From the NCBI GenBank assembly GCA_027008775.1, contig JALVDV010000010.1:96529-160528 (forward strand): a DNA stretch of 64,000 bases. Direction: 5' to 3'. Both the position numbers and the translations under genes were made by a program. The first letter of the stretch is position 1. Each line of letters begins with the position of its first letter. The DNA is from Candidatus Moraniibacteriota bacterium. Lineage in GTDB: Bacteria > Patescibacteriota > Minisyncoccia > Moranbacterales > DUUL01. Positions 26,142 to 63,550 of the stretch are shown here, in pieces. The notes below the pieces were generated by a model. That model was not told where the DNA came from and made no database searches. It worked only from the letters and a program-made list of their open reading frames with translations.

Positions 26142-28085
26142 TTATTCTTCGGCCGGCGCCACTTCCGCATTGGTTAGATTTCGGATTATTCTTGAGGTGA
26201 CTCGCCCCAGATTGAATTGGATCGACTGTTTGGTAAAAGTATCCCGACCGGAAACTTTAATATTACTCATTAAAAGTAATTCCTGTCCGGCTTGATTGTC
26301 GGAAGGAATTGTCTTGACAATAAATTCCGCTTGACGAGGAGGTTGGCCATCGTAACCGGTGCCGGCCTTGAGAACACCGAGTAGCCAATTTAGGTTGTTG
26401 CCCCGCTCATTGAAATTAAGATTGTCTGATTTGGGTTCCACTTGTCTGACCCAAGAAATGCCGGCGGGAAAATCAGCTGTCAATTTTACTTCTTTTAAGT
26501 CGCTGGTGGTGTTGAACAACTGTAAAACAAGCCTGATGTTTAATTCTTGCCCAACTTTTAACCTGCTGATTTCTTGACCATTGTTATCCTCCGGTAAAAT
26601 TTTGGCTTGAACCTGAAAGTTGACAACGGAGTTAATAAGGGTAACCAATTTTTTGGAAATTATTCTCTTATTTTCGTAAAAGGGGGAGTCTATATCCAAA
26701 CTTTCCATTTCGGAAAAAATGCTGAGCGAAGGATTTTTATTTTCGCCTTGTTGGAAAGGTATCGGTCGTTGCACTCTTAATTTAAATTTGAGCTGACCAC
26801 TCTCCCCCGGCTCCAGGCTGGCCAACTGCTTGTTGTCACCGGCTTTCCAAATCAGCATATTTTTTTCTCTGTCAAAATATCCTCCTTGAGAACGAATTTC
26901 CGAAGGCACTATGTATTTTGCAGGTAAATGAGTTTTTAGAACCAAGTTTTTTAAAGCAACCGAGGAATTATTCTTAAAAATTATTTTGTATTCTATTGAA
27001 TCTCCGGGATTAACCACTCGTTGCTCCGTTTCTTGTCGTATTAGTAATTTGGGAGGTGTCACTCCAAAACTTTTCTCGCCGATGAAAAATACTTGTCGCA
27101 GATTGTCTTTATTTAGAAGAGTAACTTTTATTTTGCCAACTGTCTCCGTTGAGTTAACGATTTGGCCAACAACTTGCAGTTCTTTTTCTTCGTTGGCGCC
27201 AATGAAATCAATCCGCCATTCCCGGCCATCTGCGCTCAAGCGACCGCTGTCTATCGCCTCTTTGTTTTCTTCCTTGGAGAAAGAAAAGGCTTCTGGATAT
27301 TCTATTTTTAACAACAAATTGCTTTTAGACTGACTGTTTTCATTTTTTATCTTGAATTTCACTTTAATTATTTCTCCACTACTAACCGCGGTCGGTAAAG
27401 TAATTAAGACACCCAAGTTGCTCTTTGACAGCTCAACAACTTTTTCAGCTTGACTGACAAATTTGCTGCTAATATTTTCCGGGCGATATCTGAATTCGGC
27501 CCTAAGCGCTTGCTGATTGGCACTACTGTAATCGATATCAAAATCAAGAATGTAACTTTTTTCTTGATACTTAGGGATTTTTTCAATAATTATTTTGGGG
27601 CCGGTGAGACTGTTTTGGTCAATTATGGAGTCGTTTTTGAGTTTAAAGTTGGAGGGGAAGTTCAGAGACAGGACACCCTTTTGCAAAGCAACACGATTGC
27701 TGTTTTTTACAGTCACTTTATAGCTAACCGAATCTCCGACGGCAATTTTGGTCGGACCATTGATAAAGACTTGAACTTTGTCTTCACTAAAGGCGCTGTT
27801 TTTAATCCGAGTGTAAATGATGCCCAATAAAGCAATGATTGCCACCAAAGCAATCGCAACAGCCCCAATCAGAACATAAAGTTTTTTCTTCCGAGCATCT
27901 TCTTTTAGCAACTCTTCCGCCGCTCGTTGCTCGGCAACTATTTCATCGGTTATTTTTTTAAATCTTTGCTTGTCAGTCAGGCCGGCTTTGTCAACTTCGT
28001 AAATGTCGTCGGTAATATGCCGGTTTTCCAAATCTTTCTGTTTTCTCTTGCGAAAAATTTTGTTTAGTACTTCTCTCAGCCTCAT
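26142..28085 (-). CDS. Membrane-anchored protein with multiple DUF11/CARDB-like repeats
   Basis: It has a cytoplasmic N-terminus, one TM segment, and then repeated roughly 110-aa beta-sandwich-like units. Confidence 0.5.
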   Translation of the reverse strand: MRLREVLNKIFRKRKQKDLENRHITDDIYEVDKAGLTDKQRFKKITDEIVAEQRAAEELLKEDARKKKLYVLIGAVAIALVAIIALLGIIYTRIKNSAFSEDKVQVFINGPTKIAVGDSVSYKVTVKNSNRVALQKGVLSLNFPSNFKLKNDSIIDQNSLTGPKIIIEKIPKYQEKSYILDFDIDYSSANQQALRAEFRYRPENISSKFVSQAEKVVELSKSNLGVLITLPTAVSSGEIIKVKFKIKNENSQSKSNLLLKIEYPEAFSFSKEENKEAIDSGRLSADGREWRIDFIGANEEKELQVVGQIVNSTETVGKIKVTLLNKDNLRQVFFIGEKSFGVTPPKLLIRQETEQRVVNPGDSIEYKIIFKNNSSVALKNLVLKTHLPAKYIVPSEIRSQGGYFDREKNMLIWKAGDNKQLASLEPGESGQLKFKLRVQRPIPFQQGENKNPSLSIFSEMESLDIDSPFYENKRIISKKLVTLINSVVNFQVQAKILPEDNNGQEISRLKVGQELNIRLVLQLFNTTSDLKEVKLTADFPAGISWVRQVEPKSDNLNFNERGNNLNWLLGVLKAGTGYDGQPPRQAEFIVKTIPSDNQAGQELLLMSNIKVSGRDTFTKQSIQFNLGRVTSRIIRNLTNAEVAPAEE

Positions 28086-36633: not shown

Positions 36634-36649
36634 AAATTTCTCTTAGCCT

Positions 36650-38404
36650 CTACACCACCCCTTTTTTCTTCATAAAGGCCAAGATACCAACGGTGATTAA
36701 GGTAGAGAAGAGAACCAAGAGAACAATGTTGGTGGCCAAACCGGTCTTGGGAGCGGAGCGACGGTAACCAAAGTCAGCCTTGGTGTGTTCGTCTTTTTCT
36801 TTGAGTTTAACAGAGGTTTGGTTGTCCAGTTTACCATCGGGGTCGTAGGTTGGAATTAGATTCTCAACATCTTTAACTACCACCCGATAATGTCCGGAGC
36901 AAAGATTCTTAATCTTGTAACGACCATGTTTGTCAGTGGTGTCACAGTATTTCTTGTTACCGCGAAAAGCGCAGACTTTAACATCAGAAATTCCTTCTTC
37001 AATATCTTCTTGAATACCGTTACCATTGGTGTCATACCAAATATAGTTGCCAATGGAAGATTGACAATCTTCTTCCTCTTCTTTTCTTTCTTCTTTGAGT
37101 TTGACGGTAACCTGATCAGAGTCGGTAATGGTTTTGGAACCAAGCTTGGCGGTAACCGTTACTTTGTTGGTGGTATCTTGGTTGATGACCACTGACTTGG
37201 TACAACTCATAGCTTCGCCAACATTCAAAGAAGTCTGGGGACAGGTGATGGTTCCCAATTGATCATCTTGAACTTGAATGTTGGTTAGTTTAGTGTCGCC
37301 GGTGTTAGTGATACGATAAGTGTAAGTGACTGTTTCTCCTTTTTTTACTTCAGTGGCGGAAGCGCTTTTTTCAACTCTAACGCCGGTGTTTTCTTTTTGA
37401 CAAACACTACTGCAACCATCGCCACTGACAGTGTTGCCGTCATCGCATTCTTCGGAGTCTTGTTTAAGGCCGTCTCCGCATTTACCTCCTTGAACAACTA
37501 CGTTTTTACAGTCACTGGAACAATAGGTACAAGAACTGTTGTAAGCCGGGGTACAAGTTTGGCCGTTGTTAGCGCCTTCATCGCATTGTTCGCCACTTTC
37601 TTTGGTGCCATTACCACAGTTGGGAGAAGGAGAAGTTTCTTTTTGACAAACACTACTACAACCATCGCCACTGACAGTGTTGCCGTCATCGCATTCTTCT
37701 CCGTCTTCCAAAACTCCGTTACCACATTGGGGAGAAGGAGTTTCATTAACTTTCTCCAAAAGCATACAAACGGGCTCAAAGCCGTGTTTGAACTTTACTC
37801 CCTTGGGTCCGGCGTGGACCACTTTGATTTGGCGCAAAGGAGAAGTTATTTGCAGAGCAGAGGAACCATAGTTAACAGCAGTGATTTTACCGGCTTCTTC
37901 CACGCCATCGGGCAGGTCTTCCGTTGTGCCGGAACGAACTCCGTTAAAGTCTATGTAGTACTGTTCGTGAGATTCATCAGCCGGGTTGGCTTGACTGCGA
38001 CCGACATAGCTGTCAAAGGATTCCAGATAAACGTTGTACTTGCCGGCGGGGATGGAGATTCCAGAAACAGTCTTTTCCCTGGGGAAATTGTGACCGTTTA
38101 AAACTCCGCCGTCGGAAACCATAATGTCACCATTGTACTTGATAAGGATATCCCCTTGTTTCTTGGTTTGCAGATGACAAACTCCGGAACAGTGATTGGC
38201 CAGATAAGTGGTGGTTTGGCGAAGGTCTTGGTTGAGAGAAGCAATCTTTTGGTTTTGCGACTGAAGGAGAACAGCGCCGAAAGCCAACAAAACAATCAGC
38301 AATAAAAAGATTCCTCCCACCAAGAGAGGTTTACGCCAAGACCATTGGTAACGAGAAGAACGGCGAGATCTTCTTGGACCACTGCTTTTTTTTCTTTGCA
38401 CCAT
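36650..38404 (-). CDS. Surface protein with Myxococcus-type Cys-rich repeats, a DUF11 domain, an SdrD-B-like domain and a C-terminal sortase-type sorting signal (copy A)
   Basis: An N-terminal TM/signal segment is followed by two CDDGNTVSGDGCSSVC repeats and then an SdrD-B-like domain. The C-terminus carries a sortase-type signal: SAPKTGLAT, a hydrophobic stretch, then KKKGVV. Confidence 0.7.
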   Translation of the reverse strand: MVQRKKSSGPRRSRRSSRYQWSWRKPLLVGGIFLLLIVLLAFGAVLLQSQNQKIASLNQDLRQTTTYLANHCSGVCHLQTKKQGDILIKYNGDIMVSDGGVLNGHNFPREKTVSGISIPAGKYNVYLESFDSYVGRSQANPADESHEQYYIDFNGVRSGTTEDLPDGVEEAGKITAVNYGSSALQITSPLRQIKVVHAGPKGVKFKHGFEPVCMLLEKVNETPSPQCGNGVLEDGEECDDGNTVSGDGCSSVCQKETSPSPNCGNGTKESGEQCDEGANNGQTCTPAYNSSCTYCSSDCKNVVVQGGKCGDGLKQDSEECDDGNTVSGDGCSSVCQKENTGVRVEKSASATEVKKGETVTYTYRITNTGDTKLTNIQVQDDQLGTITCPQTSLNVGEAMSCTKSVVINQDTTNKVTVTAKLGSKTITDSDQVTVKLKEERKEEEEDCQSSIGNYIWYDTNGNGIQEDIEEGISDVKVCAFRGNKKYCDTTDKHGRYKIKNLCSGHYRVVVKDVENLIPTYDPDGKLDNQTSVKLKEKDEHTKADFGYRRSAPKTGLATNIVLLVLFSTLITVGILAFMKKKGVV

Positions 38405-38490
38405 GCTATTTGTTTTTATTTTTTAAGGAAAAGCAAAAAGACAATTCTTTCTTTGCTTAGATTTTAACATAAAAGGGAATTGGGGGCAAT
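36654..38490 (-). repeat. 1.84-kb direct repeat, copy A (gene plus about 90 bp of promoter region)
   Basis: It is near-identical to 58303..60140 in the same orientation. Confidence 0.95.
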
Positions 38491-38568
38491 GGATTCTGGA
38501 AATTTCCAGGGAATATCTTTCTATCAACAAATACACCGAATGCTTACTATCTCCAGGTATAGTTATAC

Positions 38569-42745: not shown

Positions 42746-43345
42746 TTATTTAATCTTTCTTCTCCCGACCAGGCCCAGGCCGGCGAGGCCTGAGCCGAAA
42801 AGGAGGATGGTCGCCGGCTCGGGCACCGGGGCTGGCGGGTTATCCACGGAAATCTCCGTTAGCTGGAGATTCCCGCACAAACCTCCGATGGCGACGACCA
42901 TGTCGTCGCGATCCCAGTCACTCCACCTGGAGGGCAGGTCCTCCAGGTGGATACTCCAGATTCCCGGAGCCGGCTGGTTCCAGAAAACGTGCTGGATTCC
43001 CTGGTCTTCGGGGGAATTCAACCGGGGATCGCTGTACCAGTCGTACAGCTCCCCAGAGGGGCTGTATGTTTGGAAATGGATTCCGAAAGACTGGAATCCA
43101 TCCCAATCATTGGCGGAGAAGGTCTGCCAGCTCCCGGGCTCGTCGCCCGCCTGGAGGACGGGCAACTGGTTTTGGGGATCGTCGGTTTTGTAGAAAAACA
43201 GTGACGATTCCCAGGATGCTTCTTCCTGGACGTCAACGACAAAAAGGCTGCCGTCCAGTTTGAAGATTGGGATTACCTGCGTGGCATTGGCCACACAGGT
43301 GAAAAAGAATAGAAAAAATAAAAATAAAAGTGGGATTTTTTTCAT
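42746..43345 (-). CDS. Secreted protein with a C-terminal PEP-CTERM sorting signal, strongly GC-shifted
   Basis: The signal peptide MKKIPLLFLFFLFFFTCVANA is AT-rich. The C-terminus reads VPEPATILLFGSGLAGLGLVGRRKIK, which is PEP, then a TM segment, then an RRK basic tail. Body codons end mostly in G or C. Confidence 0.75.
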   Translation of the reverse strand: MKKIPLLFLFFLFFFTCVANATQVIPIFKLDGSLFVVDVQEEASWESSLFFYKTDDPQNQLPVLQAGDEPGSWQTFSANDWDGFQSFGIHFQTYSPSGELYDWYSDPRLNSPEDQGIQHVFWNQPAPGIWSIHLEDLPSRWSDWDRDDMVVAIGGLCGNLQLTEISVDNPPAPVPEPATILLFGSGLAGLGLVGRRKIK

Positions 43346-43593: not shown

Positions 43594-44622
43594 TTATTTA
43601 TTTTCCAATTCAGCCACTTTAGCCTGCAAATCACGGATTTCCTTTTGTTGCTCTTTGACTGCTTCAATCAAAACTCCAACCAGACCGTCATAGTCAACTG
43701 TTTTGTAGCCATTGGGGCTCTCATTAACCAAGCTGGGGAAGTCTTTTTCAATTTCTTGAGCGATTACTCCGATATTTTTCTGGTCATTGCTTTTCAATTT
43801 ATACTCCACTCCGCGAATGTTCTCCAATCTCTGTAAAGCATTTTCCACTGTTTTGATGTCTTTTTTTAATCTAACATCAGAGCCCCGACGGAAATTGGCT
43901 GCCCAGACATCAGCAAATTGTCCTTTACCTTTACCAACTACCAAGCCGGCATTTCTGCTTCTGGATCCATCCACTCTAATCCCGATGGATCCGGCCAGGC
44001 TGGGAGCGTTGGGAGAAACATCAAAAGCGTAAATCCAGGGACCCCGGGTGTTATCAACTTTTTGATATTCACTGTTGTTAGTGACAGTGCCAATTCTAAA
44101 TTTGCCCTGAGAGACGAAAGTTTTACCAAAAATGTTAGCGTACTGGTTGTGACCGCGACCAACTACCAAAGCGCTATCCGGTCCTTGATTGCCAACGCGG
44201 ATACCGATGCTTCCGTTCATATTGCTCACGCCCGGCACTTGATTGATGGCATAAATCCAGGGTCCTCTCATCGCATCTATTCGGTTGTACCCGGCGGTGC
44301 TGTTAACCATTCCTATTTGCAGATACGGACCGGAGGCCTGGGCTCCTTGAGCATACAATCTGACAGCGCCGTTGGCAAAAATATTACCATTAGCCAACAA
44401 GGCTGTGCTTCGGTTACCGGCAACGTTAACGGCCAAACCGCCGTCTTTAGCTTGCCAAATTGGGCCGGTGTTTAAAGGCGCTTTCAAGTTACTGGCCGGG
44501 GGATTGGAAGATGGCTCCGTCCAATTGGTTGATTGGGCACTGGTTGATTGGACATAAACCAAGGCTGCCAAAGCAACAAGTCCCGTCGCAACCACCATTT
44601 TGAATTTACTATTCATTTTCAT
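43594..44622 (-). CDS. Secreted tail-fibre-like protein with a C-terminal peptidase S74 intramolecular-chaperone domain
   Basis: It has a signal peptide and two internal roughly 100-aa repeats. The C-terminus reads SDVRLKKDI…GVEYK…IGVIAQEIEKDFPSLV…VDYDGLVGVLIEAVKEQQKEIRDL, which matches the auto-cleaving chaperone of phage tail spikes. Confidence 0.7.
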   Translation of the reverse strand: MKMNSKFKMVVATGLVALAALVYVQSTSAQSTNWTEPSSNPPASNLKAPLNTGPIWQAKDGGLAVNVAGNRSTALLANGNIFANGAVRLYAQGAQASGPYLQIGMVNSTAGYNRIDAMRGPWIYAINQVPGVSNMNGSIGIRVGNQGPDSALVVGRGHNQYANIFGKTFVSQGKFRIGTVTNNSEYQKVDNTRGPWIYAFDVSPNAPSLAGSIGIRVDGSRSRNAGLVVGKGKGQFADVWAANFRRGSDVRLKKDIKTVENALQRLENIRGVEYKLKSNDQKNIGVIAQEIEKDFPSLVNESPNGYKTVDYDGLVGVLIEAVKEQQKEIRDLQAKVAELENK

Positions 44623-45019: not shown

Positions 45020-45874
45020 CTAGTTAACTTTAACCGGTAAACTCGTTTCCAAATTATGATAGTTGTATTTGACCTGGACATTTCCGTTACCCTTATTTTT
45101 GGCTTGAATAATCTTGTTAACCTCTCCCGCCAAATCAAAGGCTGAAGAATTTTCCGTCCAGGTGGCCAAACCGGTGACATCTAAACCGGAACAACTGTTT
45201 TTAGAAGCGGAAAGACAAGCTTTGAGGTTTTTATTATCGCCCTCACTCATCGTTAAGCTTGTGAGAGGATTGTTGTTGCCACAAGTATTTTCACAGATAA
45301 CCAAATTTTTGCCAAAAGAATCTATTCCACAGGCTTTGGCCTGACCGAAACTTACCCAACCAAGCTCATTAGACCAGGCGTAACCGGACAGTTTCCCGTG
45401 AGAATCCAGATGGACTCCGTAGTCTTGCCCGTTTGTAACTTTTCCCCTCATCTTTATCCAACCTCTCCAACCACCAGAATTGTTTATTTTTTCCTCTTGA
45501 GCGATGCCCACAATTCTGGCCCAACCGGTCAAATTGTTACCTTCTTTTCTTACCCCTCCTTTATCTCCATTGGGCGCGTTGCAATTGGCTTGGTAAGCGC
45601 TTCCACAATGCTCTTGGGGACTAAAGTCCACCCAGCCCAGATTGGAACTCCAGGCGTAACCGGTAATATTACCGTCACCGCTTGGTATTTTTAAATTATA
45701 AGAAATACTGCCGTTTTGGTTGGCATTGGTGGCGCTAATCCAACCAAAATTAGTGTTGCTGCCAGCCCAAAACCAACCGACAATATTATTGTCATTAGGG
45801 GCGGCTTTGACTAGAAAGGTAATTCCAATAATTGCCAAACTGAGCAGAGAACCGTAGATTATTTTTTTGAGCAT
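45020..45874 (-). CDS. Secreted protein with tandem G(Y/W)AWS…LGW(V/I)xF repeats
   Basis: A signal peptide is followed by at least three aromatic GW repeats and a Cys-rich C-terminal part. Confidence 0.5.
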   Translation of the reverse strand: MLKKIIYGSLLSLAIIGITFLVKAAPNDNNIVGWFWAGSNTNFGWISATNANQNGSISYNLKIPSGDGNITGYAWSSNLGWVDFSPQEHCGSAYQANCNAPNGDKGGVRKEGNNLTGWARIVGIAQEEKINNSGGWRGWIKMRGKVTNGQDYGVHLDSHGKLSGYAWSNELGWVSFGQAKACGIDSFGKNLVICENTCGNNNPLTSLTMSEGDNKNLKACLSASKNSCSGLDVTGLATWTENSSAFDLAGEVNKIIQAKNKGNGNVQVKYNYHNLETSLPVKVN

Positions 45875-54993: not shown

Positions 54994-57900
54994 TTAGTAG
55001 GTTTCGCGGAAAGTATGAGGTCGACAAGGCGGACACTGCTTAACCTCATTGTGACAGCTTTTGCCGGTGGCCGATTTGTATTCCTTTTCTGACACTTGTA
55101 TGTAGGGAGCGTTGTTGGGGAAACATTTCTTGTCGTGTTTACGCGCTTGTTTTGTTATGATTACTCTTTCTCCACAATGTCCGTTACAGGCGCCAGGATT
55201 GATAGTTATACAACTATAGTCAAACTTCGGCACGCATTCGCAATTCTCATCTCCACCGGCTAAATCGTAGTAATCTTTAGGAACCAAGTTACCATAATTG
55301 ATATTGGTGTCTGTGAAACTACCGATATGTCTATTTGATTCTCCGGCTGTTCCACAGCGCCAGACATATTTTCCATCAATAAAGGCTAGACTATTAAAAT
55401 TTCCAAACCGACAGGCATCAGTTAATGATTTATATGGCGAGGACGTTGGATCATCATTACAAGCCGCCTTACTTTTAGCTCTACAAGTTGTTGTTTGCCC
55501 ATTTAAGCTACACTGCCAAGAATAACCTCCTTCATATTCTGATTGGTCGGTAAAATTAGAAACAACAGCATTTGCCGGTTGACATAATCCTTCCGAGTTT
55601 TCATTTAACTCATGAGTACCATAAGTCCCATCGGAAGCCGGGCCACAATCAACCCTTTGGGAGGCATGACATTCGGCATTTTTACCAGTTCCCCTGCCAA
55701 GGCATTGCCAGTTGGCCACGCCGTTAACAAATTCTGGATTAGTTGGCAATGGTTGCCCTGTGCTACAAAGTGGTTTACTAGGAGTAACAGCTGTTGACGG
55801 ATAATTGTTGCGACTAGCGCCAGGATTACAAACACCATCTGCATTGCAATTATCAACAGTGACTTCCCAAGAAAGCCGTCGAGCAGGTAAAATTATTGGC
55901 TGATCGTTAATTGCCTTCTGAGCAAGATTAAAGAAATCATCACTAGGTGACCACCAGTGAACCTTGACCGTTCCTTCTTTCTTTTCTGGATCCCAACTTT
56001 GCAGAGCATTTAAATCTCTGGCTGTTTGATAAGCGGTATATTCACGCCAAACTCCGTCACCGCATATTACCAGTACTTTTTCTCCAGAATCTTTAAAATG
56101 TTCAATACTCGTTGATTCGTAGTTTATTGCTGGGTTTCTTGGTATCCCAATATTTCTTAAACTAGATATCAATGACCAAATTTTGGCTTGAGTTTCACCA
56201 ATATGAGCCGTGACTCTTACTTTACCAGATTTTCCGGGTTGAGCTTGACAAATTAATCCATTACACTTCAAAATACTGTTGTCACTGGAAGTCAAATAAA
56301 CATTCGGTTTTTTAGCCGTCCAATAAATATAACCTTTGTTATAAGGGAAGGCTCCTTGTATTTCCAAGCTATTTCCGTAATCCGGGTGTTTTATATTACC
56401 TCCAAAACAGGAAGCATTTCTGTAATTATCACAAAATTTCCCAAAAGGAGTATCGTAAACATCACCAGCGCTGGTAAAAAACAGTTCCGGTTGATATCTA
56501 TAAGTCGCATTACCGTTACAAGATAAAACTGACTGTCCATTAATTTTGTGAGTTACTGTCACAATGTTATGGGCTATATAATAATAGGCTGGCTTCTGTT
56601 CTTTGACCAAGTTAGAATAATATCTGATGTGGAAATGGTTGATTGTGCTGGCTACACTTCCGCTGTAAGCCAAAGCTGGTTTGCCGGATGCAATTACGAG
56701 CAATCCTCCCGAAAACAGTAGCAAGAAAATAATTGTAAAATAGTTCTTCATTTTTTTAAGCAATAAAACCAAAATTATTATCAATACCGCTCCCAATACT
56801 ATCAGTATAACCGTTATAGTGTTTTTGCCTATGTTTTTGCTTCCCGCCAGACCTGTTTGCTGGCCGGATTTGGATTTCAATAATTTCCTGTCCAGTTCTA
56901 CCGAGTATTGATCCATTAGCATACCGGAAGAGTCCTTGAGCTGAGCGGTTAATTTTAAATAATCGTAGTCTTTTTTAGCCGGAAAACTTTTCTTAACAGC
57001 CTGCATTGCACCAGTGATATTTCCTTGGCGGAAAACCCTCGTTACCAAATGCCCCTCTTTATCTGTTAACTTCACTTCCACTGTTCCCACAAACCTATCT
57101 TTATTGGTATTGTGGAAACAAGTAAATAAGTCAGCTGTTTCTCCTTTTTTCAAGGGAAATTTCGTTAAACCGGGGTAATTTAATCTGCCCCAATTAATTC
57201 CTTCTGTGACTACCCTGGTATTGATAATTGTCTTAGTTCCCTCTGTCTCGGCAATTGTTTGCAAGTAGTAAACCGACTTATTGGCTGAGGGTATGGTGTA
57301 AGTAACTGTTTTTTGGGAATTTGCCGGCAACACTATCTCCTTTTCTTGATTGTCAACAAGGTCTTTTTCATTTAAGGCGTCCCAGAAATATAATTTTTGA
57401 GACAACTTAGCCTTGACCTCATGGCCTAAGGGATTGACAAGAGTTTGTTCAATAACCACTTTTGTTTCCGGCGCCACTTTGGGCCAATTGCCGATGTGGT
57501 TGTATTTTTCTCCGTTCACTTTTGTTGCCTCTCGCTGAAAGTGGATGTTGTTTTTGATGGTAGAAGAGACGGTAAATTCCGAGCTACCGCCGACAATTTC
57601 GTTAGTAAATGGCAAACCGGCCAAATTAAATTTTTTGCCGACAGAGAAAAAGAAATCAGCCCGATATCTGCCTTCGGCCAAATTGGTGGGAATCGCCCAT
57701 TTAAAAGCAACCTTTTGAGAGGAGTTTTTGTCTAGAACAAGATTTTTTTTGGCAATAAATTCATCAACAATATCATTGCCCTGTTGATCAAACTTATCGC
57801 TGACCTTGCTTATTCGGACAAAGAGATTGCCGTCAAAAATCGGGTATCTATTTTTATTAGTTAATTTTCCCTGAAAGGTTACTTTTTCCTCCGGTTGGTA

Positions 57901-58236
57901 TTGAAGTTTGTCCGGACTAAGATTGATGTCAACCGATTGAAACTTGTAGTATTGAAAACAATCTACTAAACCACTTTCACTTTTCTTTCTTTGTTCTTTT
58001 TTTAGAAAATGATTTTGGGGTGAAGAGACTTCTCCTTCAGCTGTTTTATTGCCAGAAAAATTACTTGTTCCCGATTTCCCGTTGGTAACTGTCGCTTGAG
58101 TTGTTCCTTCCGGCCCAGCCCATTCTAAGGGTAAGGCGGAATCAGAAGTGGCTAAAGCCTGCCCTATTCCCGTCAACCAGACAATTAAAAACACTGGCAA
58201 GAACAATAAAACTGATTTTGTGAATAGTTTGCGCAT
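54994..58236 (-). CDS. Large secreted protein (1080-aa ORF), probably two fused genes: a sortase-substrate domain followed by a signal peptide and a Cys-rich C-terminal domain
   Basis: It has an N-terminal signal peptide. An internal segment reads SGQQTGLAGS, a hydrophobic stretch, then LLLKK. This is followed at once by MKNYFTIIFLLLFSGGLLVIASG, which looks like a signal peptide. The junction sits on an A7 homopolymer at 56751-56757. Confidence 0.55.
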   Translation of the reverse strand: MRKLFTKSVLLFLPVFLIVWLTGIGQALATSDSALPLEWAGPEGTTQATVTNGKSGTSNFSGNKTAEGEVSSPQNHFLKKEQRKKSESGLVDCFQYYKFQSVDINLSPDKLQYQPEEKVTFQGKLTNKNRYPIFDGNLFVRISKVSDKFDQQGNDIVDEFIAKKNLVLDKNSSQKVAFKWAIPTNLAEGRYRADFFFSVGKKFNLAGLPFTNEIVGGSSEFTVSSTIKNNIHFQREATKVNGEKYNHIGNWPKVAPETKVVIEQTLVNPLGHEVKAKLSQKLYFWDALNEKDLVDNQEKEIVLPANSQKTVTYTIPSANKSVYYLQTIAETEGTKTIINTRVVTEGINWGRLNYPGLTKFPLKKGETADLFTCFHNTNKDRFVGTVEVKLTDKEGHLVTRVFRQGNITGAMQAVKKSFPAKKDYDYLKLTAQLKDSSGMLMDQYSVELDRKLLKSKSGQQTGLAGSKNIGKNTITVILIVLGAVLIIILVLLLKKMKNYFTIIFLLLFSGGLLVIASGKPALAYSGSVASTINHFHIRYYSNLVKEQKPAYYYIAHNIVTVTHKINGQSVLSCNGNATYRYQPELFFTSAGDVYDTPFGKFCDNYRNASCFGGNIKHPDYGNSLEIQGAFPYNKGYIYWTAKKPNVYLTSSDNSILKCNGLICQAQPGKSGKVRVTAHIGETQAKIWSLISSLRNIGIPRNPAINYESTSIEHFKDSGEKVLVICGDGVWREYTAYQTARDLNALQSWDPEKKEGTVKVHWWSPSDDFFNLAQKAINDQPIILPARRLSWEVTVDNCNADGVCNPGASRNNYPSTAVTPSKPLCSTGQPLPTNPEFVNGVANWQCLGRGTGKNAECHASQRVDCGPASDGTYGTHELNENSEGLCQPANAVVSNFTDQSEYEGGYSWQCSLNGQTTTCRAKSKAACNDDPTSSPYKSLTDACRFGNFNSLAFIDGKYVWRCGTAGESNRHIGSFTDTNINYGNLVPKDYYDLAGGDENCECVPKFDYSCITINPGACNGHCGERVIITKQARKHDKKCFPNNAPYIQVSEKEYKSATGKSCHNEVKQCPPCRPHTFRETY

Positions 58237-58298
58237 TGATTTTTTTAATTTTTTATTTGTTTAGATAAATAAGGCACCAAACAAAATCTTCTTACCCC

Positions 58299-60053
58299 CT
58301 AAACCACCCCTTTTTTCTTCATAAAGGCCAAGATACCAACGGTGATTAAGGTAGAGAAGAGAACCAAGAGAACAATGTTGGTGGCCAAACCGGTCTTGGG
58401 AGCGGAGCGACGGTAACCAAAGTCAGCCTTGGTGTGTTCGTCTTTTTCTTTGAGTTTAACAGAGGTTTGGTTGTCCAGTTTACCATCGGGGTCGTAGGTT
58501 GGAATTAGATTCTCAACATCTTTAACTACCACCCGATAATGTCCGGAGCAAAGATTCTTAATCTTGTAACGACCATGTTTGTCAGTGGTGTCACAGTATT
58601 TCTTGTTACCGCGAAAAGCGCAGACTTTAACATCAGAAATTCCTTCTTCAATATCTTCTTGAATACCGTTACCATTGGTGTCATACCAAATATAGTTGCC
58701 AATGGAAGATTGACAATCTTCTTCCTCTTCTTTTCTTTCTTCTTTGAGTTTGACGGTAACCTGATCAGAGTCGGTAATGGTTTTGGAACCAAGCTTGGCG
58801 GTAACCGTTACTTTGTTGGTGGTATCTTGGTTGATGACCACTGACTTGGTACAACTCATAGCTTCGCCAACATTCAAAGAAGTCTGGGGACAGGTGATGG
58901 TTCCCAATTGATCATCTTGAACTTGAATGTTGGTTAGTTTAGTGTCGCCGGTGTTAGTGATACGATAAGTGTAAGTGACTGTTTCTCCTTTTTTTACTTC
59001 AGTGGCGGAAGCGCTTTTTTCAACTCTAACGCCGGTGTTTTCTTTTTGACAAACACTACTGCAACCATCGCCACTGACAGTGTTGCCGTCATCGCATTCT
59101 TCGGAGTCTTGTTTAAGGCCGTCTCCGCATTTACCTCCTTGAACAACTACGTTTTTACAGTCACTGGAACAATAGGTACAAGAACTGTTGTAAGCCGGGG
59201 TACAAGTTTGGCCGTTGTTAGCGCCTTCATCGCATTGTTCGCCACTTTCTTTGGTGCCATTACCACAGTTGGGAGAAGGAGAAGTTTCTTTTTGACAAAC
59301 ACTACTACAACCATCGCCACTGACAGTGTTGCCGTCATCGCATTCTTCTCCGTCTTCCAAAACTCCGTTACCACATTGGGGAGAAGGAGTTTCATTAACT
59401 TTCTCCAAAAGCATACAAACGGGCTCAAAGCCGTGTTTGAACTTTACTCCCTTGGGTCCGGCGTGGACCACTTTGATTTGGCGCAAAGGAGAAGTTATTT
59501 GCAGAGCAGAGGAACCATAGTTAACAGCAGTGATTTTACCGGCTTCTTCCACGCCATCGGGCAGGTCTTCCGTTGTGCCGGAACGAACTCCGTTAAAGTC
59601 TATGTAGTACTGTTCGTGAGATTCATCAGCCGGGTTGGCTTGACTGCGACCGACATAGCTGTCAAAGGATTCCAGATAAACGTTGTACTTGCCGGCGGGG
59701 ATGGAGATTCCAGAAACAGTCTTTTCCCTGGGGAAATTGTGACCGTTTAAAACTCCGCCGTCGGAAACCATAATGTCACCATTGTACTTGATAAGGATAT
59801 CCCCTTGTTTCTTGGTTTGCAGATGACAAACTCCGGAACAGTGATTGGCCAGATAAGTGGTGGTTTGGCGAAGGTTTTGGTTGAGAGAAGCAATCTTCTG
59901 GTTTTGCGACTGAAGGAGAACAGCGCCGAAAGCCAACAAAACAATCAGTAATAAAAAGATTCCTCCCACCAAGAGAGGCTTACGCCAAGACCATTGGTAA
60001 CGAGAAGAACGGCGAGATCTTCTTGGACCACTGCTTTTTTTTCTTTGCACCAT
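58299..60053 (-). CDS. Surface protein with Cys-rich repeats, DUF11, SdrD-B-like domain and C-terminal sorting signal (copy B)
   Basis: Starting from MVQRKK it is 584 aa and about 99% identical to copy A, with one D/N difference seen. Confidence 0.7.
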   Translation of the reverse strand: MVQRKKSSGPRRSRRSSRYQWSWRKPLLVGGIFLLLIVLLAFGAVLLQSQNQKIASLNQNLRQTTTYLANHCSGVCHLQTKKQGDILIKYNGDIMVSDGGVLNGHNFPREKTVSGISIPAGKYNVYLESFDSYVGRSQANPADESHEQYYIDFNGVRSGTTEDLPDGVEEAGKITAVNYGSSALQITSPLRQIKVVHAGPKGVKFKHGFEPVCMLLEKVNETPSPQCGNGVLEDGEECDDGNTVSGDGCSSVCQKETSPSPNCGNGTKESGEQCDEGANNGQTCTPAYNSSCTYCSSDCKNVVVQGGKCGDGLKQDSEECDDGNTVSGDGCSSVCQKENTGVRVEKSASATEVKKGETVTYTYRITNTGDTKLTNIQVQDDQLGTITCPQTSLNVGEAMSCTKSVVINQDTTNKVTVTAKLGSKTITDSDQVTVKLKEERKEEEEDCQSSIGNYIWYDTNGNGIQEDIEEGISDVKVCAFRGNKKYCDTTDKHGRYKIKNLCSGHYRVVVKDVENLIPTYDPDGKLDNQTSVKLKEKDEHTKADFGYRRSAPKTGLATNIVLLVLFSTLITVGILAFMKKKGVV

Positions 60054-60140
60054 GCTATTTGTTTTTATTTTTTTAAGGAAAAGCAAAAAGACAATTATTT
60101 CTTCGCTTAGATTGTAACACAAAAGGGAATTGGGGGCAAT
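58303..60140 (-). repeat. 1.84-kb direct repeat, copy B
   Basis: It is near-identical to 36654..38490 with one homopolymer indel. The upstream non-coding part is more diverged than the coding part. Confidence 0.95.
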
Positions 60141-60387
60141 TGATCGCATCAAAAAGCATCATTGATAAATCATTGGAAATGACGCCAAGATTCGGATAAA
60201 ATATGCTATTTTATTTTTTATTTTGCGCGTTCTTGGTCTGAGATATTCGTTTTATATTTTACAAATATTTACGGTTATTTTATTTTTTCTGAAACACAAA
60301 CAAATGCTCATGCATAATCAGAAGAAAGTTATATTTCTTGGACCGCTCCACCCAAAACCCAGTCGCTTGGCAATATCAGTTTCGTAA

Positions 60388-60825
60388 TTATACTTCTTCG
60401 CTTTGAATTGTTTTTAATTTTTTCCAATTAATTTCTTCCACATTTTTGTTTTTGTCAACAAAAAAGATATACAAGCACAATCTTCTTAAAACATTAAATG
60501 GAGTTTTCTTGATAACCATATCGCGAAAATATGTAGAAAATGCCAGCCCGTATTTATAGCCATGATAACAATCACGATATCTTTCATTTCTGTTAGAATA
60601 CATTCGCGTGATAATTTGCCCCATCGCTGAATTAAAACTGCTACTCCTACTGCCAGAAGGACTTTGTACTTTACTAGACGGATCACCTTTTACTTCAATA
60701 AGCCAATATCTTGGATATTTATCATTTTTAACTTTTATATCCACGCCCTGCTCCCACAAATTCGCCGCTTTTAATGATGTGCCCCATCCTTTTTCTTTTA
60801 AATATTCACACCGCTTCTTGCACAA
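60388..60825 (-). CDS. Small PD-(D/E)xK nuclease-fold protein (putative)
   Basis: VDIKVKND…WLIEVKG fits a D…E-x-K catalytic motif. Confidence 0.35.
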   Translation of the reverse strand: MCKKRCEYLKEKGWGTSLKAANLWEQGVDIKVKNDKYPRYWLIEVKGDPSSKVQSPSGSRSSSFNSAMGQIITRMYSNRNERYRDCYHGYKYGLAFSTYFRDMVIKKTPFNVLRRLCLYIFFVDKNKNVEEINWKKLKTIQSEEV

Positions 60826-60886
60826 AATCTTCCGTTAAAATTGTTCGTTTTTGGTTTGATTGTGATAGCGTAATAATATTTTATTA

Positions 60887-61861
60887 CTATTTTTCTGAAC
60901 TAATTTTTATATATTTTCCAAATTTATCAATTTTTACATCACGATTTTTTTTATAATTACATTTTTTAAAATATCTTATCATCCTTTTTAAATAATTCAC
61001 ATCTTTGGCAACGAAACAATTATAACTATTTTCTACTATAAGTTGATTGATACTTTTAATCGCGTTTTTACCTTCTTTTTTATAAATTTCTATAGGTGAT
61101 TTTATTTTTGGTATTATTACAAGATGCAAATCGGGTCTCAAAGGAAAATGTACAACACCATCCAAAGATGAAAGTCCTACACTTCTATTGTTTTTAGAAT
61201 AAACAAAACAAGGATTATCGGATGTTATCATCGACATTTTCTTGGGAGGCACTATAAAAATCCATTGATTTTCAAATAACTTTTTTGCTATTTCATTAAG
61301 TTTAAATAACCACTTTGAATGCCCCGTGTTTGTTAATTTAATAACATAGCCATCATTTTGAATTGCCTCAAATAATTGTTTTTTTGCTTCTATTTTAGGT
61401 AAAGCATTTATCTTTTTTATCGCTTTTTTCTCGTCTTCATTTATCGCCTGTTTTTCATCTGGTATAATAATTTTATCTACTGACGAAAACTTATCTCTAA
61501 GTCCTATCTTTATAATGGTATCTATAACACTATTTATTTCACTTCTGTGCTTTGGAGTTCTTATGTATTGAAGAGCAACATAAAAAGCAATTGCACTTCG
61601 CTCGTATCCATTTAATTGCTTGCCATAATTAATATCTTTAATAGTTTTAATACCTTTTGCATCAATATATGCAGTAAATTTTTCAGGTAAATATTTATCA
61701 TTAACATCATCCAATATATTAAAATCTTTTATAGAAAAACCTGGCCAACCTGCACCCCTTCTTTTAATTTTGTCTTCCTCTGTGCTATAAATATTTAATT
61801 GATTATCATCACAATACCATTGTTTTAAATATTCCTTTTGTACAATATGATGTTTCGGCAT
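60887..61861 (-). CDS. DUF4238-family protein
   Basis: The N-terminal HHIVQKEYLKQW matches the DUF4238 H(Y/H)(V/I)PQxYL(K/R)xF motif. The start was taken at the internal ATG (MPKHH). Confidence 0.55.
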   Translation of the reverse strand: MPKHHIVQKEYLKQWYCDDNQLNIYSTEEDKIKRRGAGWPGFSIKDFNILDDVNDKYLPEKFTAYIDAKGIKTIKDINYGKQLNGYERSAIAFYVALQYIRTPKHRSEINSVIDTIIKIGLRDKFSSVDKIIIPDEKQAINEDEKKAIKKINALPKIEAKKQLFEAIQNDGYVIKLTNTGHSKWLFKLNEIAKKLFENQWIFIVPPKKMSMITSDNPCFVYSKNNRSVGLSSLDGVVHFPLRPDLHLVIIPKIKSPIEIYKKEGKNAIKSINQLIVENSYNCFVAKDVNYLKRMIRYFKKCNYKKNRDVKIDKFGKYIKISSEK

Positions 61862-61966
61862 AATATTTTCATCATCAAACAAACAACCCCTGCATCAAAC
61901 CTTTTTCCCAGGTTTGGACTTTGGTTATTTGATCTTGTTTTAATTGTATCATTTTATCAATAGAAT

Positions 61967-62956
61967 TCAGGAGGTCTGCGATTTTTTGTTGTTAGAGTGT
62001 TGAAATTTTATATCAATTTCTGCTGCCATATCTCTCAATTCTGAAAAAGAATTATCCAACGATTCTACATAAACATCAAGATTAAATGGATCAACATCTT
62101 TATCCATTGACACCATCTTTTCCATTCTTTTCAATAATTCGTCTATCTTTTTTATTTCTTCAACAATTCCTGGAATAGCTATTCCATGCTTATTTAATGT
62201 TTTGATGTTATACCTGTCCTTAACGCCTTTTTTAAAATCCTCATATATTTTACACAACGTTTCAAAAGAAGTTTTAGAGATATGACGATTGTCCTCAAAT
62301 GACCATAATTTTTGTATTAAATAGCCAGATTGTGCAAGCTTTTCTACTAAACTGTCATATTTAAACTTTTCTTTGTGTTTATTTTCAATTTCATTTAGCT
62401 TTTTTATGATTCTATCCATTTCTATACTTAATACACTAGATTGTTTATTTATTATTTCTATAATATTTATCTTTTTATTAACAAAATTATTATGCGACCA
62501 TACTTGATATTCTAAAATATTTGTATTTTCAGCTGTACTTAATGATGTATATGTAATATTTCCATCTTTATAAGAAATGTCTTTACTTCTTTTTTTCTTT
62601 GTTTCCGATGGATGTCCAATTGTTTCATTTCTTATATTTCGTATTTTTTTAAGTTCCGGAAAACTTTCAAATTTTGGCACCTTGATATCAATAGCCCTTT
62701 CCAAATGCACTATTGAATCCTGTTGTACAATTAGTGCTTGTAATATTCCATATATAGATAATTTTGTATGATATTTTTGCTCTATATATTCTTCTATTGC
62801 TGATTGAGCATCTTGAATATTATCAAAAGCAGACCATAATTTGCTCCAATTACCTTTATCTTTCTTATTCCAAGCTCTTTGCTTACAACAAAAAGATGTG
62901 TAAATAATCTTTTTTAATTTATCAATTTTTGTTCTTAAATTATAGTTATCATTCAT
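61967..62956 (-). CDS. Hypothetical protein with a possible HEPN-like Rx5H motif
   Basis: IRNIRNETIGHPSE contains R-x5-H. There are no other recognisable domains. Confidence 0.35.
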   Translation of the reverse strand: MNDNYNLRTKIDKLKKIIYTSFCCKQRAWNKKDKGNWSKLWSAFDNIQDAQSAIEEYIEQKYHTKLSIYGILQALIVQQDSIVHLERAIDIKVPKFESFPELKKIRNIRNETIGHPSETKKKRSKDISYKDGNITYTSLSTAENTNILEYQVWSHNNFVNKKINIIEIINKQSSVLSIEMDRIIKKLNEIENKHKEKFKYDSLVEKLAQSGYLIQKLWSFEDNRHISKTSFETLCKIYEDFKKGVKDRYNIKTLNKHGIAIPGIVEEIKKIDELLKRMEKMVSMDKDVDPFNLDVYVESLDNSFSELRDMAAEIDIKFQHSNNKKSQTS

Positions 62957-63035
62957 AGTATTTTTTTACACAAACAACCCCTGCATCAGTCCTCTTTTCC
63001 ACTCCTGCATTTTTTGGATTTGGGCGTCAACTGAC

Positions 63036-63506
63036 TCAATGCTTACTTTTCACCCCTTCAAACTCTACACCCACAAAACCCTCCCAGCCCAAAACTATTT
63101 CTTCATTCTTGTACTGTTGGGCGATTTTCTTTATGGCGTCATTTTTGCTTTTTGCCTTGACATCAACAACTCTCTGCAATGTTTCCGTGATTTCTATTTT
63201 GTATTTCTTGGTAGATTTCAAAACAACATCGTCCGCATCCTTATTCTTAATTTTTTCCAAAAATCCTTTAGCCATAAGTTGCAATGTTTCTTCGTCTAAG
63301 TTTTGTAAATTTTCCCATAATTCAAATGTTTGATAAGTGTCATCATTTACAATGTTTCGCCATTCTTTCGGTTCAATTTCCATAAAATCATTATCTTCTG
63401 AAAATTCTTTACACATTATTGAAAACGGAAAATAAAAATCTTTATGCTCATCTAAATATCTTAGAATTTTAATAGCCAAATTCCTATTGATTTTCATAGC
63501 ACACAA
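63036..63506 (-). CDS. Hypothetical protein
   Basis: An ORF is present but no motif was recognised. Confidence 0.35.
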   Translation of the reverse strand: MCAMKINRNLAIKILRYLDEHKDFYFPFSIMCKEFSEDNDFMEIEPKEWRNIVNDDTYQTFELWENLQNLDEETLQLMAKGFLEKIKNKDADDVVLKSTKKYKIEITETLQRVVDVKAKSKNDAIKKIAQQYKNEEIVLGWEGFVGVEFEGVKSKH

Positions 63507-63550
63507 AGTTAAATTTTATGCTTTCATTATTGATCACTATGAAAAACAGA

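What the first reader, a model, noticed from the sequence alone, without database searches (positions are those of the whole stretch)
36650..38404. Composite surface protein: Myxococcus-type Cys-rich repeats + DUF11 + SdrD-B-like domain + a non-canonical 'xKTGLA' sorting signal
Two CDDGNTVSGDGCSSVC repeats, a DUF11-like fold and an SdrD-B-like domain (IGNYIWYDTNGNGIQE…) are followed by SAPKTGLAT, a hydrophobic helix, and KKKGVV. This has the shape of an LPXTG sortase signal but with APKTG in place of LPXTG. The same TGLA(G/T)xNI core recurs in the neighbouring 1080-aa protein at 56760-56880 as SGQQTGLAGSKNI. This suggests a sortase or other cell-wall-anchoring transpeptidase with a divergent recognition motif.
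Basis: partly seen in the sequence, partly recalled or inferred. Interest (0 to 1): 0.6.

Follow-up and report, generated by a model that had tools for sequence, protein, structure and literature searches.

The report
Sortase-anchored surface protein, duplicated, in CPR bacterium
This gene encodes a modular surface protein of a Patescibacteria (CPR) bacterium whose tail is an ordinary sortase cell-wall sorting signal with Ala in place of Leu (APKTG rather than LPXTG); it belongs to a large family whose genes often sit next to a sortase gene, so it is a mild variant of a known system and not a new anchoring mechanism.

Summary
The tail is a three-part sorting signal: APKTG, a 20-residue hydrophobic segment, then KKKGVV.

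In 78 distinct homologous tails the conserved positions are P (73/78) and T (75/78); G, fixed by that search pattern, is invariant in an independent alignment of 34. K (17/78) and the following "LA" (11/78) vary. The motif is therefore [A/T/S/L/I]-P-x-T-G, with an LAKTG sub-variant. It is not "xKTGLA".

The tail alone just passes NCBIfam's LPXTG_anchor cutoff. In 23 of 41 informative Patescibacteria species genomes, a true sortase gene (His, TLxTC and Arg present) lies 38-466 bp downstream of the family member.

The window itself has no sortase, and the rest of the genome could not be read.

The "TGLA" in the 1080-aa protein is a chance match and is absent from its homologs. That protein is nevertheless a conserved neighbour of this family.

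Verdict: an ordinary sortase substrate with a relaxed first motif position. Interest is low to moderate.

The parts
36650..38404 (-). CDS, copy A: 584-aa modular surface protein. It has an N-terminal basic region plus hydrophobic segment, a jelly-roll domain, 3 Cys-rich DUF4215 repeats, a DUF7507/DUF11 Ig-like domain, an SdrD_B domain and a sorting signal.
38261..38404 (-). Residues 1-48: a long basic N-region (MVQRKKSSGPRRSRRSSRYQWSWRK) followed by a 22-residue hydrophobic segment. This is an export signal or signal-anchor. Cleavage was not tested.
   Evidence: sequence; homologs have similar N-termini
37745..38197 (-). Residues about 70-220: a family-specific N-terminal beta-sandwich (jelly-roll) domain with no Pfam model. 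AlphaFold2 gives pLDDT 90.4. It resembles carbohydrate-binding modules only weakly.
37385..37747 (-). Residues about 220-340: three cysteine-rich acidic repeats (DUF4215 / TIGR02232). The outer two are identical at ECDDGNTVSGDGCSSVCQKE.
37103..37384 (-). Residues 341-434: DUF7507/DUF11 Ig-like domain.
36767..37057 (-). Residues 450-546: SdrD_B (CnaB-like) domain ending in the family-invariant ADFGY.
36740..36754 (-). Residues 551-555: APKTG, the sortase-type pentapeptide (LPXTG with Ala at position 1). The predicted cleavage between T554 and G555 is inferred.
36653..36730 (-). Residues 559-584: hydrophobic segment NIVLLVLFSTLITVGILAFM followed by the basic tail KKKGVV.
38461..38489 (-). Promoter-like site (TTGCCC-17-TAAAAT with an upstream TG) at the upstream edge of the duplicated block.
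   Evidence: consensus match only
36634..38494 (.). Duplicated block, copy A: promoter-like site, gene and 16 bp beyond the stop codon.
58284..60144 (.). Duplicated block, copy B, 99.2% identical. The 3' portion of the CDS, about 1.5 kb, has no differences. The differences cluster in the first roughly 200 nt of the CDS and upstream of it.
58299..60053 (-). CDS, copy B: 584 aa from the ATG, 583/584 identical to copy A (D60N), with the same APKTG tail at 58389-58403.
54994..58236 (-). 1080-aa protein immediately downstream of copy B. It has a signal peptide, a conserved domain, a TM-KK-TM hairpin (about res 474-520) and a Cys-rich domain. It is a conserved neighbour of this family in other genomes. 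Its 'QQTGLAG' (56842-56862) is not a sorting signal.

Best explanation
The gene, and its near-identical second copy, encodes a secreted modular surface protein of a Patescibacteria (CPR) bacterium related to Moranbacteria. Its last 37 residues form a sortase-type cell-wall sorting signal: the pentapeptide APKTG, a membrane-spanning hydrophobic segment, and a basic stop-transfer tail.

Inferred mechanism, by analogy with characterised sortases:
1. The protein is exported by Sec and held in the membrane by the C-terminal segment.
2. A membrane-anchored cysteine transpeptidase (sortase) cleaves between Thr554 and Gly555.
3. The sortase joins Thr554 to a peptidoglycan precursor. The stalk (SdrD_B, DUF11, Cys-rich repeats) then projects from the wall with the N-terminal jelly-roll domain at the far end as the likely ligand-binding part.

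The recognition motif of the family is [A/T/S/L/I]-P-x-T-G, with an LA[K/R]TG sub-variant. This is LPXTG with a relaxed first position, not 'xKTGLA'. The cognate sortase is not in this window and must be encoded elsewhere in the genome, if at all.

Shown here: the anatomy, conservation of the motif, a match to the LPXTG_anchor model, and sortase adjacency in relatives.
Inferred: cleavage, wall attachment, and the existence of a sortase in this genome.
For: - Tripartite tail present.
- In an alignment of 34 homologous C-terminal regions (35-74% identity), P107 and G110 are invariant and T109 is >=90% conserved, while neighbouring positions vary.
- Over 78 distinct tails: position 1 is A46/T13/S11/L6/I2; position 2 is P73/A5; position 4 is T75/S2/A1; position 3 and the two residues after G are highly variable.
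- The tail alone scores 16.5 bits on TIGR01167 LPXTG_anchor (cutoff 15.9), and no other sorting-signal model hits it.
- A PF04203 sortase gene lies 161 bp downstream of the APKTG homolog P0010/P0021.
- In the GTDB species-representative scan, 23 of 41 Patescibacteria loci with enough downstream DNA have a sortase ORF 38-466 bp downstream on the same strand. These ORFs have the GH[RS], TL[VY]TC and basic-R motifs and PF04203 E-values of 1e-13 to 1e-29.
- In L011 the order is sortase, then a homolog of the 1080-aa protein, then the APKTG homolog P0003, with 134- and 38-bp gaps.
- Starting from the sortase side, two relatives of the short sortase sit directly after giant SdrD_B proteins that end LARTG/LAKTG + TM + basic.
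- Literature: more than half of CPR genomes encode a sortase (PMC6744442). Natural sortases with a non-Leu first position are known, e.g. C. difficile SrtB cleaving SPKTG/PPKTG between T and G (PMC4155245).
Against: - The 64-kb window has no sortase. This rests on Pfam scans of essentially all ORFs, SrtA and CPR-sortase tblastn, and a six-frame hmmsearch --max with a lineage-specific sortase profile.
- There is also none in the 10 kb upstream of the window in a near-identical strain.
- Sortase is patchily distributed in CPR groups outside Microgenomates (PMC6744442), so this genome could lack one.
- In the subclade closest to this protein, only 2 of 6 loci (L002, L011) have a sortase nearby.
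- In a full-length scan the LPXTG_anchor model was not reported. Its pass on the isolated tail is marginal (E=0.01).
- The N-terminal hydrophobic segment is long (22 residues) with no obvious AxA site. It could be an uncleaved anchor, which is unusual for sortase substrates.
- No biochemical data exist for any CPR sortase.
Confidence: 0.78

Rival explanations
1. The C-terminal segment is a plain, uncleaved transmembrane anchor. In this organism the xPxTG sequence is a relic or a structural hinge, because the genome lacks a sortase.
For: - No sortase in the window or in 10 kb beyond its start.
- Sortase is patchy in non-Microgenomates CPR (PMC6744442).
- The closest relatives mostly lack an adjacent sortase.
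Against: - P, T and G are kept across species at 35-74% identity while the flanks drift. This argues for selection on the motif, including in the clade without adjacent sortases.
- Both copies in this genome keep it intact.
- Only about 13% or less of a genome of roughly 1 Mb was inspected. The genome size is my own estimate for CPR bacteria.
Confidence: 0.12
2. One reading: a new kind of anchoring transpeptidase recognises a non-canonical 'xKTGLA / TGLA(G/T)xNI' core shared by this protein and the 1080-aa neighbour.
For: The strings SAPKTGLATNI and GQQTGLAGSKNI both precede hydrophobic segments followed by Lys residues.
Against: - K is present in 17/78 family tails and 'LA' after G in 11/78, while P is present in 73/78.
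- The 1080-aa protein's TG is absent from its homologs in L011 and L001, although the TM hairpin is conserved.
- That site is internal, not C-terminal.
- TGLA also occurs in an unrelated soluble context at 45020-45874.
- The genes next to homologs are ordinary PF04203 sortases.
Confidence: 0.03
3. The protein is a subunit of a covalently polymerised, sortase-assembled fibre (pilus-like) rather than a monomeric wall-anchored adhesin. The dedicated neighbouring sortase in relatives would act as a polymerase, as class C sortases do.
For: - Dedicated sortase genes sit adjacent to their substrates. From my own knowledge, this arrangement is typical of pilus loci.
- CnaB-like SdrD_B and Ig-like domains are common in pilins (own knowledge).
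- The class C model scores 73 bits on the L002 sortase.
Against: - All class-specific sortase models (C, D, E, F) fall far below their cutoffs.
- Loci contain one substrate gene, not the two or three pilin genes typical of pilus islands.
- No pilin-motif Lys context (YPKN-like) is evident in the sequence. This was checked by eye only.
Confidence: 0.07

Closest known systems
LPXTG cell-wall sorting signal proteins of Gram-positive bacteria (NCBIfam TIGR01167; sortase A-type substrates)
   Same: - Pentapeptide, then a hydrophobic segment of about 20 residues, then a short basic tail at the extreme C-terminus.
- P, T and G are conserved.
- The tail passes the TIGR01167 cutoff.
- Sortase genes are adjacent in relatives.
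   Different: - Position 1 is Ala (or Thr/Ser in relatives), not Leu. Only 1 of 78 family tails is a true LPxTG.
- The host is a CPR/Patescibacteria bacterium.
- The N-terminal export signal has an unusually long basic region and hydrophobic core.
Clostridium difficile SrtB substrates with (S/P)PXTG motifs (SPKTG, PPKTG, SPSTG, SPQTG)
   Same: - A small or non-Leu residue at position 1 with P-x-T-G retained. SPKTG differs from APKTG by one residue.
- Cleavage between T and G was shown experimentally (PMC4155245).
- Family members here also carry SPQTG, SPVTG and SPATG.
   Different: The sortases next to the CPR homologs gave no class B hit. Their best matches are the class D/E/C models, all below cutoff. 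The lineage and the substrate architecture are unrelated.
Class E sortase substrates with LAXTG (Actinobacteria; own knowledge of the sortase classification)
   Same: A sub-branch of this family ends in LAKTG/LARTG and sits next to the same short sortase type that neighbours the APKTG homolog. The class E model is the joint best class-level hit (83 bits).
   Different: The score is far below the class E cutoff of 160. The window's protein has AP, not LA.
Staphylococcus aureus SdrC/SdrD MSCRAMM adhesins
   Same: Both have an SdrD B-type (CnaB-like) stalk domain followed by a sortase signal.
   Different: There is no A-region ligand-binding domain and no Ser-Asp repeats. NCBIfam scores are 34-38 bits against cutoffs of 1700-2500. 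Only the B-domain is shared.
Engineered S. aureus SrtA variants F40 and A1-22 selected for APxTG (PMC8248031)
   Same: They recognise the same pentapeptide class (APxTG).
   Different: Those are laboratory-evolved enzymes with low activity. Here APxTG is the natural majority motif of a protein family (39 of 78 tails), which implies natural enzymes that accept it.

Membership tests
Sortase substrate (LPXTG-type cell wall sorting signal) | LPXTG-like pentapeptide about 30-40 residues from the C-terminus | tested here: met
   APKTG lies at residues 551-555 of 584. P and G are invariant and T >=90% in the family alignment. Leu is replaced by Ala.
Sortase substrate (LPXTG-type cell wall sorting signal) | Hydrophobic membrane-spanning segment followed by positively charged residues at the end | tested here: met
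   NIVLLVLFSTLITVGILAFM followed by KKKGVV.
Sortase substrate (LPXTG-type cell wall sorting signal) | Match to the curated profile TIGR01167 LPXTG_anchor at or above its cutoff | tested here: inconclusive
   The isolated 37-aa tail scores 16.5 bits against a cutoff of 15.9 (E=0.01), and homolog P0023 scores the same. The model was not reported for the full-length protein at E<=0.1.
Sortase substrate (LPXTG-type cell wall sorting signal) | N-terminal cleavable signal peptide | tested here: inconclusive
   A basic region plus a 22-residue hydrophobic segment is present. No signal-peptide predictor was available. Some homologs have classical AxA signal peptides.
Sortase substrate (LPXTG-type cell wall sorting signal) | A sortase (PF04203) encoded in the same genome | not testable with these tools
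   None in the 64-kb window or in 10 kb upstream in a near-identical strain. The rest of the 162-kb contig and the MAG could not be read. In relatives, 23/41 loci have one directly downstream.
Sortase substrate (LPXTG-type cell wall sorting signal) | Cleavage between T and G and amide linkage to peptidoglycan | not testable with these tools
   This needs biochemistry or mass spectrometry.
SdrD_B domain (PF17210) | Profile match above the gathering score | tested here: met
   63 bits against a cutoff of 29.7, residues 450-532.
DUF4215 / TIGR02232 cysteine-rich acidic repeat | Profile match above cutoff, in repeated copies | tested here: met
   Pfam 60 bits vs 27. NCBIfam 82 bits vs 20.8, in 3 stretches.
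DUF7507 / DUF11 Ig-like domain | Profile match above cutoff | tested here: met
   DUF7507 scores 47 bits vs 27; DUF11 scores 28.5 vs 24.6.
MSCRAMM adhesins SdrC/SdrD | Full-length equivalog score | tested here: not met
   34-38 bits against cutoffs of 1700-2500.
Class B sortase system (NPQTN / NPKTG / (S/P)PXTG substrates) | The neighbouring sortase belongs to class B | tested here: not met
   The L002 sortase hits TIGR01076 sortase_fam (72.8 vs 39.35). Among class models it hits only D, E, C, F and GN, all below cutoff. There is no class B hit.
   K occurs in 17/78 tails and LA in 11/78. There is no TG at the aligned site in the L011 or L001 homologs.

The most novel reading that the evidence does not exclude
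The sortases encoded beside this family in Patescibacteria are natural enzymes tuned to small first-position residues (APxTG, TPxTG, SPxTG, or LAKTG) rather than to LPXTG. They come in two forms: a short form of 204-253 aa, and a long form of 325-426 aa with TSP3 calcium-binding repeats and a TLVTCWP active site. Together with the conserved partner gene (the 1080-aa two-domain hairpin membrane protein), they would form a CPR-specific three-gene surface module used for attachment to host cells. Such enzymes would be naturally orthogonal ligases, for example for the APATG site of histone H3 that currently needs engineered SrtA.
Probability: 0.3. Interest if true: 0.5.

Novelty: new member of a known kind. 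Interest (0 to 1): 0.3.

Why it matters
For the biology of CPR bacteria, this identifies a widespread family of wall-anchored, adhesin-like proteins. The family has a dedicated sortase in many lineages and a conserved partner membrane protein. These are plausible components of the poorly understood attachment of these episymbionts to their hosts.

For enzymology, the family documents that APxTG, TPxTG and SPxTG are the natural majority motifs of a sortase system. In the library I searched, APxTG specificity appears only for engineered SrtA variants (PMC8248031). The neighbouring CPR sortases are therefore candidates for orthogonal ligation tools.

For annotation, it shows that LPXTG-centred pattern searches would miss nearly all of these substrates. 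Only 1 of 78 tails is a true LPxTG.

None of this changes what is known about how sortase anchoring works.

Tried and rejected
- **Sortase in the window.** None was found. I ran SrtA tblastn and a TLxTC motif scan, tblastn with a CPR sortase, Pfam on essentially every ORF, and a six-frame hmmsearch --max with a profile built from 25 CPR sortases.
- **Reaching the rest of the source genome.** An exact look-up of the protein found no gene record. Cluster look-up showed the source is a 162,315-bp contig. Look-ups of the end genes returned only other assemblies, giving 10 kb upstream of the window and about 3 kb beyond its end, with no sortase. The GTDB scan did not contain the source genome; the best hit was 74% identical.
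- **Contig-length fingerprint.** I searched for relatives of the L002 sortase, hoping one would sit on a 162,315-bp contig. None of the 37 hits did. One look-up (P0148) was not on record.
- **The 1080-aa protein as a hidden sortase or fused substrate.** Rejected. It has no Pfam, NCBIfam or PDB hits and no sortase-profile hit. The TM-KK-TM hairpin is conserved in homologs while the QQTG is not. A >=90%-identical 1080-aa version also exists in a second assembly, so it is not a frameshift artefact.
- **Alternative sorting systems for this tail** (PEP-CTERM, GlyGly-CTERM and others). Only LPXTG-type models hit the tail.
Full report
**What is there**

The ORF at 36650..38404 on the minus strand encodes 584 aa.
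- SdrD_B: residues 450-532, 63 bits
- DUF4215: 60 bits
- DUF7507: 47 bits
- DUF11: 28.5 bits

NCBIfam sees three cysteine-rich acidic repeats (TIGR02232) and only B-domain-level similarity to SdrC/SdrD. The protein ends FGYRRS-APKTG-LAT-NIVLLVLFSTLITVGILAFM-KKKGVV.

The N-terminal 150 residues after the export signal have no Pfam model but are shared by about 30 homologs. With an alignment of 25 of them, AlphaFold2 gives a confident beta-sandwich (pLDDT 90.4). It resembles carbohydrate-binding modules only weakly (best Foldseek E=1.9e-3, TM about 0.4) and has no PDB sequence relative.

A self-comparison shows a 1862-bp direct duplication, 36634-38494 against 58284-60144, at 99.2% identity. It yields a second gene at 58299..60053 that is 583/584 identical in protein.
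- The 3' portion of the coding sequence, about 1.5 kb, is identical between the copies.
- The few differences lie in the first roughly 200 nt of the CDS and in the 90 bp upstream. That upstream stretch carries a promoter-like site at the edge of the block.
- Both copies are recorded on one 162,315-bp public contig. A sister assembly has the copy-B/1080-aa arrangement on a 22,485-bp contig, so the arrangement is not an artefact of this assembly.

**The organism**

The window is dense with housekeeping genes: IF3, L20, RF-1, SecDF, SMC, ClpP, trigger factor, NusA, RecA, RNase Y, SecA, ParAB, L10 and L7/L12. The nearest named RecA relatives, at 77-78% identity, are Candidatus Moranbacteria and 'Patescibacteria group'. 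The closest relatives of the protein are also Patescibacteria MAGs, mostly Candidatus Moraniibacteriota.

**What is conserved in the tail**

The protein search returned hundreds of relatives. Every one that ends with an SdrD_B domain carries the same three-part tail.

In an alignment of 34 C-terminal regions (35-74% identical to the query), the invariant residues near the end are D99, F100, Y102, P107 and G110, and T109 is >=90% conserved. Over 78 distinct tails from proteins and loci:

| Position | Residues (count of 78) |
|---|---|
| 1 | A 46, T 13, S 11, L 6, I 2 |
| 2 | P 73, A 5 |
| 3 | A 29, K 17, S 12, V 9, Q 5, R 3, D 1, E 1, T 1 |
| 4 | T 75, S 2, A 1 |
| Two residues after G | highly variable: PG 15, SG 13, LA 11, AG 7, others |

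The motif is therefore [A/T/S/L/I]-P-x-T-G, with a minor LA[K/R]TG form. The isolated tail just passes NCBIfam's LPXTG_anchor cutoff (16.5 against 15.9 bits), and no other sorting-signal model matches it. JGI already labels one homolog 'LPXTG-motif cell wall-anchored protein'.

**Link to sortase**

The window itself has no sortase by any test. Neither does the 10 kb upstream of it in a near-identical strain.

In relatives the link is strong:
- The APKTG homolog P0010/P0021 is followed 161 bp later by a 253-aa PF04203 sortase.
- A scan of one genome per GTDB species with the family alignment gave 44 Patescibacteria loci. Of the 41 with enough downstream DNA, 23 have a sortase ORF 38-466 bp downstream on the same strand.
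- These ORFs carry the catalytic His (GH[RS]), Cys (TL[VY]TC) and Arg contexts and score E=1e-13 to 1e-29 on PF04203.
- Starting from the sortase side, two relatives of the short sortase sit directly after 2218- and 2567-aa SdrD_B proteins that end LARTG/LAKTG + TM + basic.

Two sortase forms occur:
- A short form (204-253 aa), next to APKTG or LAKTG substrates.
- A long form (325-426 aa), with TSP3-type calcium-binding repeats and a TLVTCWP motif, next to [T/A/S/I]PxTG[S/P/A/T]G substrates.

The short form matches the generic sortase model (TIGR01076) but none of the class-specific models at their cutoffs. Classes D and E score best, and there is no class B hit.

**The 1080-aa neighbour**

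'SGQQTGLAGSKNI' is real, but it lies in the middle of the protein. It precedes a TM segment, KKMK, and then a second TM segment.

Homologs of this protein lie next to A-family genes in two other genomes:
- L011: sortase, then the 1018-aa homolog, then the APKTG protein P0003, with 134- and 38-bp gaps.
- L001: the 998-aa homolog, then P0013.

In both homologs the TM-basic-TM hairpin is conserved, but the aligned region has no TG. TGLA also occurs in an unrelated protein in the window, and the expected count is 0.37. The motif match is therefore chance.

The gene neighbourhood, however, is meaningful. The A-like protein, the hairpin protein and (in L011) a sortase form a recurring module. This suggests copy B is the ancestral position and copy A, wedged between secA and a small-multidrug-export gene, is the newer one. 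That ordering is an inference.

**Mechanism and comparison with known systems**

The best-supported reading is ordinary sortase-mediated wall anchoring of an adhesin-like stalk protein. What is shown is the anatomy, the conservation and the genomic linkage. Cleavage and attachment are inferred.

Natural sortases that use a non-Leu first residue are established: C. difficile SrtB cleaves SPKTG, PPKTG, SPSTG and SPQTG between T and G but not LPETG (PMC4155245). Sortases are known to be common in CPR genomes (PMC6744442; also PMC7143001). In the literature I could search, APxTG specificity appears only for engineered S. aureus SrtA variants used on histone H3 (PMC8248031). I found no paper describing this CPR family or its motif.

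**Verdict**

This is a new member of a known kind. Two modest points of interest remain: a natural APxTG/TPxTG/SPxTG motif family, and a conserved CPR surface-protein module.

The main open point is whether this genome encodes a sortase. These tools could not answer that.

Noticed in passing
36634-38494 and 58284-60144: A 1.86-kb direct duplication of the whole gene plus its promoter-like upstream 90 bp, at 99.2% identity. The 3' portion of the CDS, about 1.5 kb, is identical, and all differences are at the 5' end and upstream. This suggests a recent duplication or ongoing gene conversion. In other assemblies the gene sits on contigs of about 2 kb, as expected for a repeat that breaks assembly.
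   Followed up: partly
42746-43345 (-), with 43594-44622 (-): A 199-aa protein with a clear PEP-CTERM (exosortase-type) sorting signal (Pfam E=6e-7; TIGR02595 23.9 vs cutoff 16). It lies next to a Peptidase_S74 (endosialidase-chaperone) protein in a patch of higher GC (47% vs about 40%). There is no exosortase in the window. A second PEP-CTERM ORF occurs in a Moraniibacteriota MAG (L035:1972-2550). PEP-CTERM is unexpected in a lineage thought to lack an outer membrane.
   Followed up: partly
54994-58236 (-): A 1080-aa protein with no family hits. It has a signal peptide, a conserved domain of about 370 aa, a TM-KK-TM hairpin in mid-protein, and a Cys-rich C-terminal half containing small CG...LC..G...W.C.G..G...C modules that also occur in many A-family homologs. 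It is a conserved neighbour of A-family genes in L011 and L001.
   Followed up: partly
L020, L027, L034, L011 and other loci (e.g. L034:10104-11114): The long CPR sortases (325-426 aa) carry bacterial TSP3 / Binary_toxB calcium-binding repeats between the N-terminal TM segment and the catalytic domain, and an unusual TLVTCWP active-site context.
   Followed up: partly
about 60200-64000: A low-GC (about 30%) island directly upstream of copy B. It encodes DpnI-like and DpnD/PcfM-like proteins, a DUF4238 protein and two ORFs with no hits. It is probably a mobile restriction/defence islet. In another assembly it continues into an ankyrin-repeat gene.
   Followed up: no
26142-28085 (-): A second DUF11-containing surface-type protein (647 aa; DUF11, bMG10, NPCBM_assoc) next to a RodZ-like gene. 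It has no C-terminal sorting signal.
   Followed up: no
P0065, P0073, P0086, P0093, P0108, P0116 (DUF4215 proteins from the protein search): Several DUF4215 proteins, the two that carry a name being annotated as Peribacteraceae MAGs, end in x-x-[E/K/N]-T-G-P + an Ala/Gly-rich hydrophobic segment + GW.RR[KR]R. This is a different, proline-less TG-type C-terminal signal that may mark another sorting variant.
   Followed up: no
L001:11429-12757: In one relative, the gene after the A-family member encodes a 442-aa protein with a GILT/thioredoxin-like domain. This fits a need for extracytoplasmic disulfide formation in these Cys-rich proteins; compare the MdbA/VKOR link to sortase systems noted in PMC6744442.
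   Followed up: no
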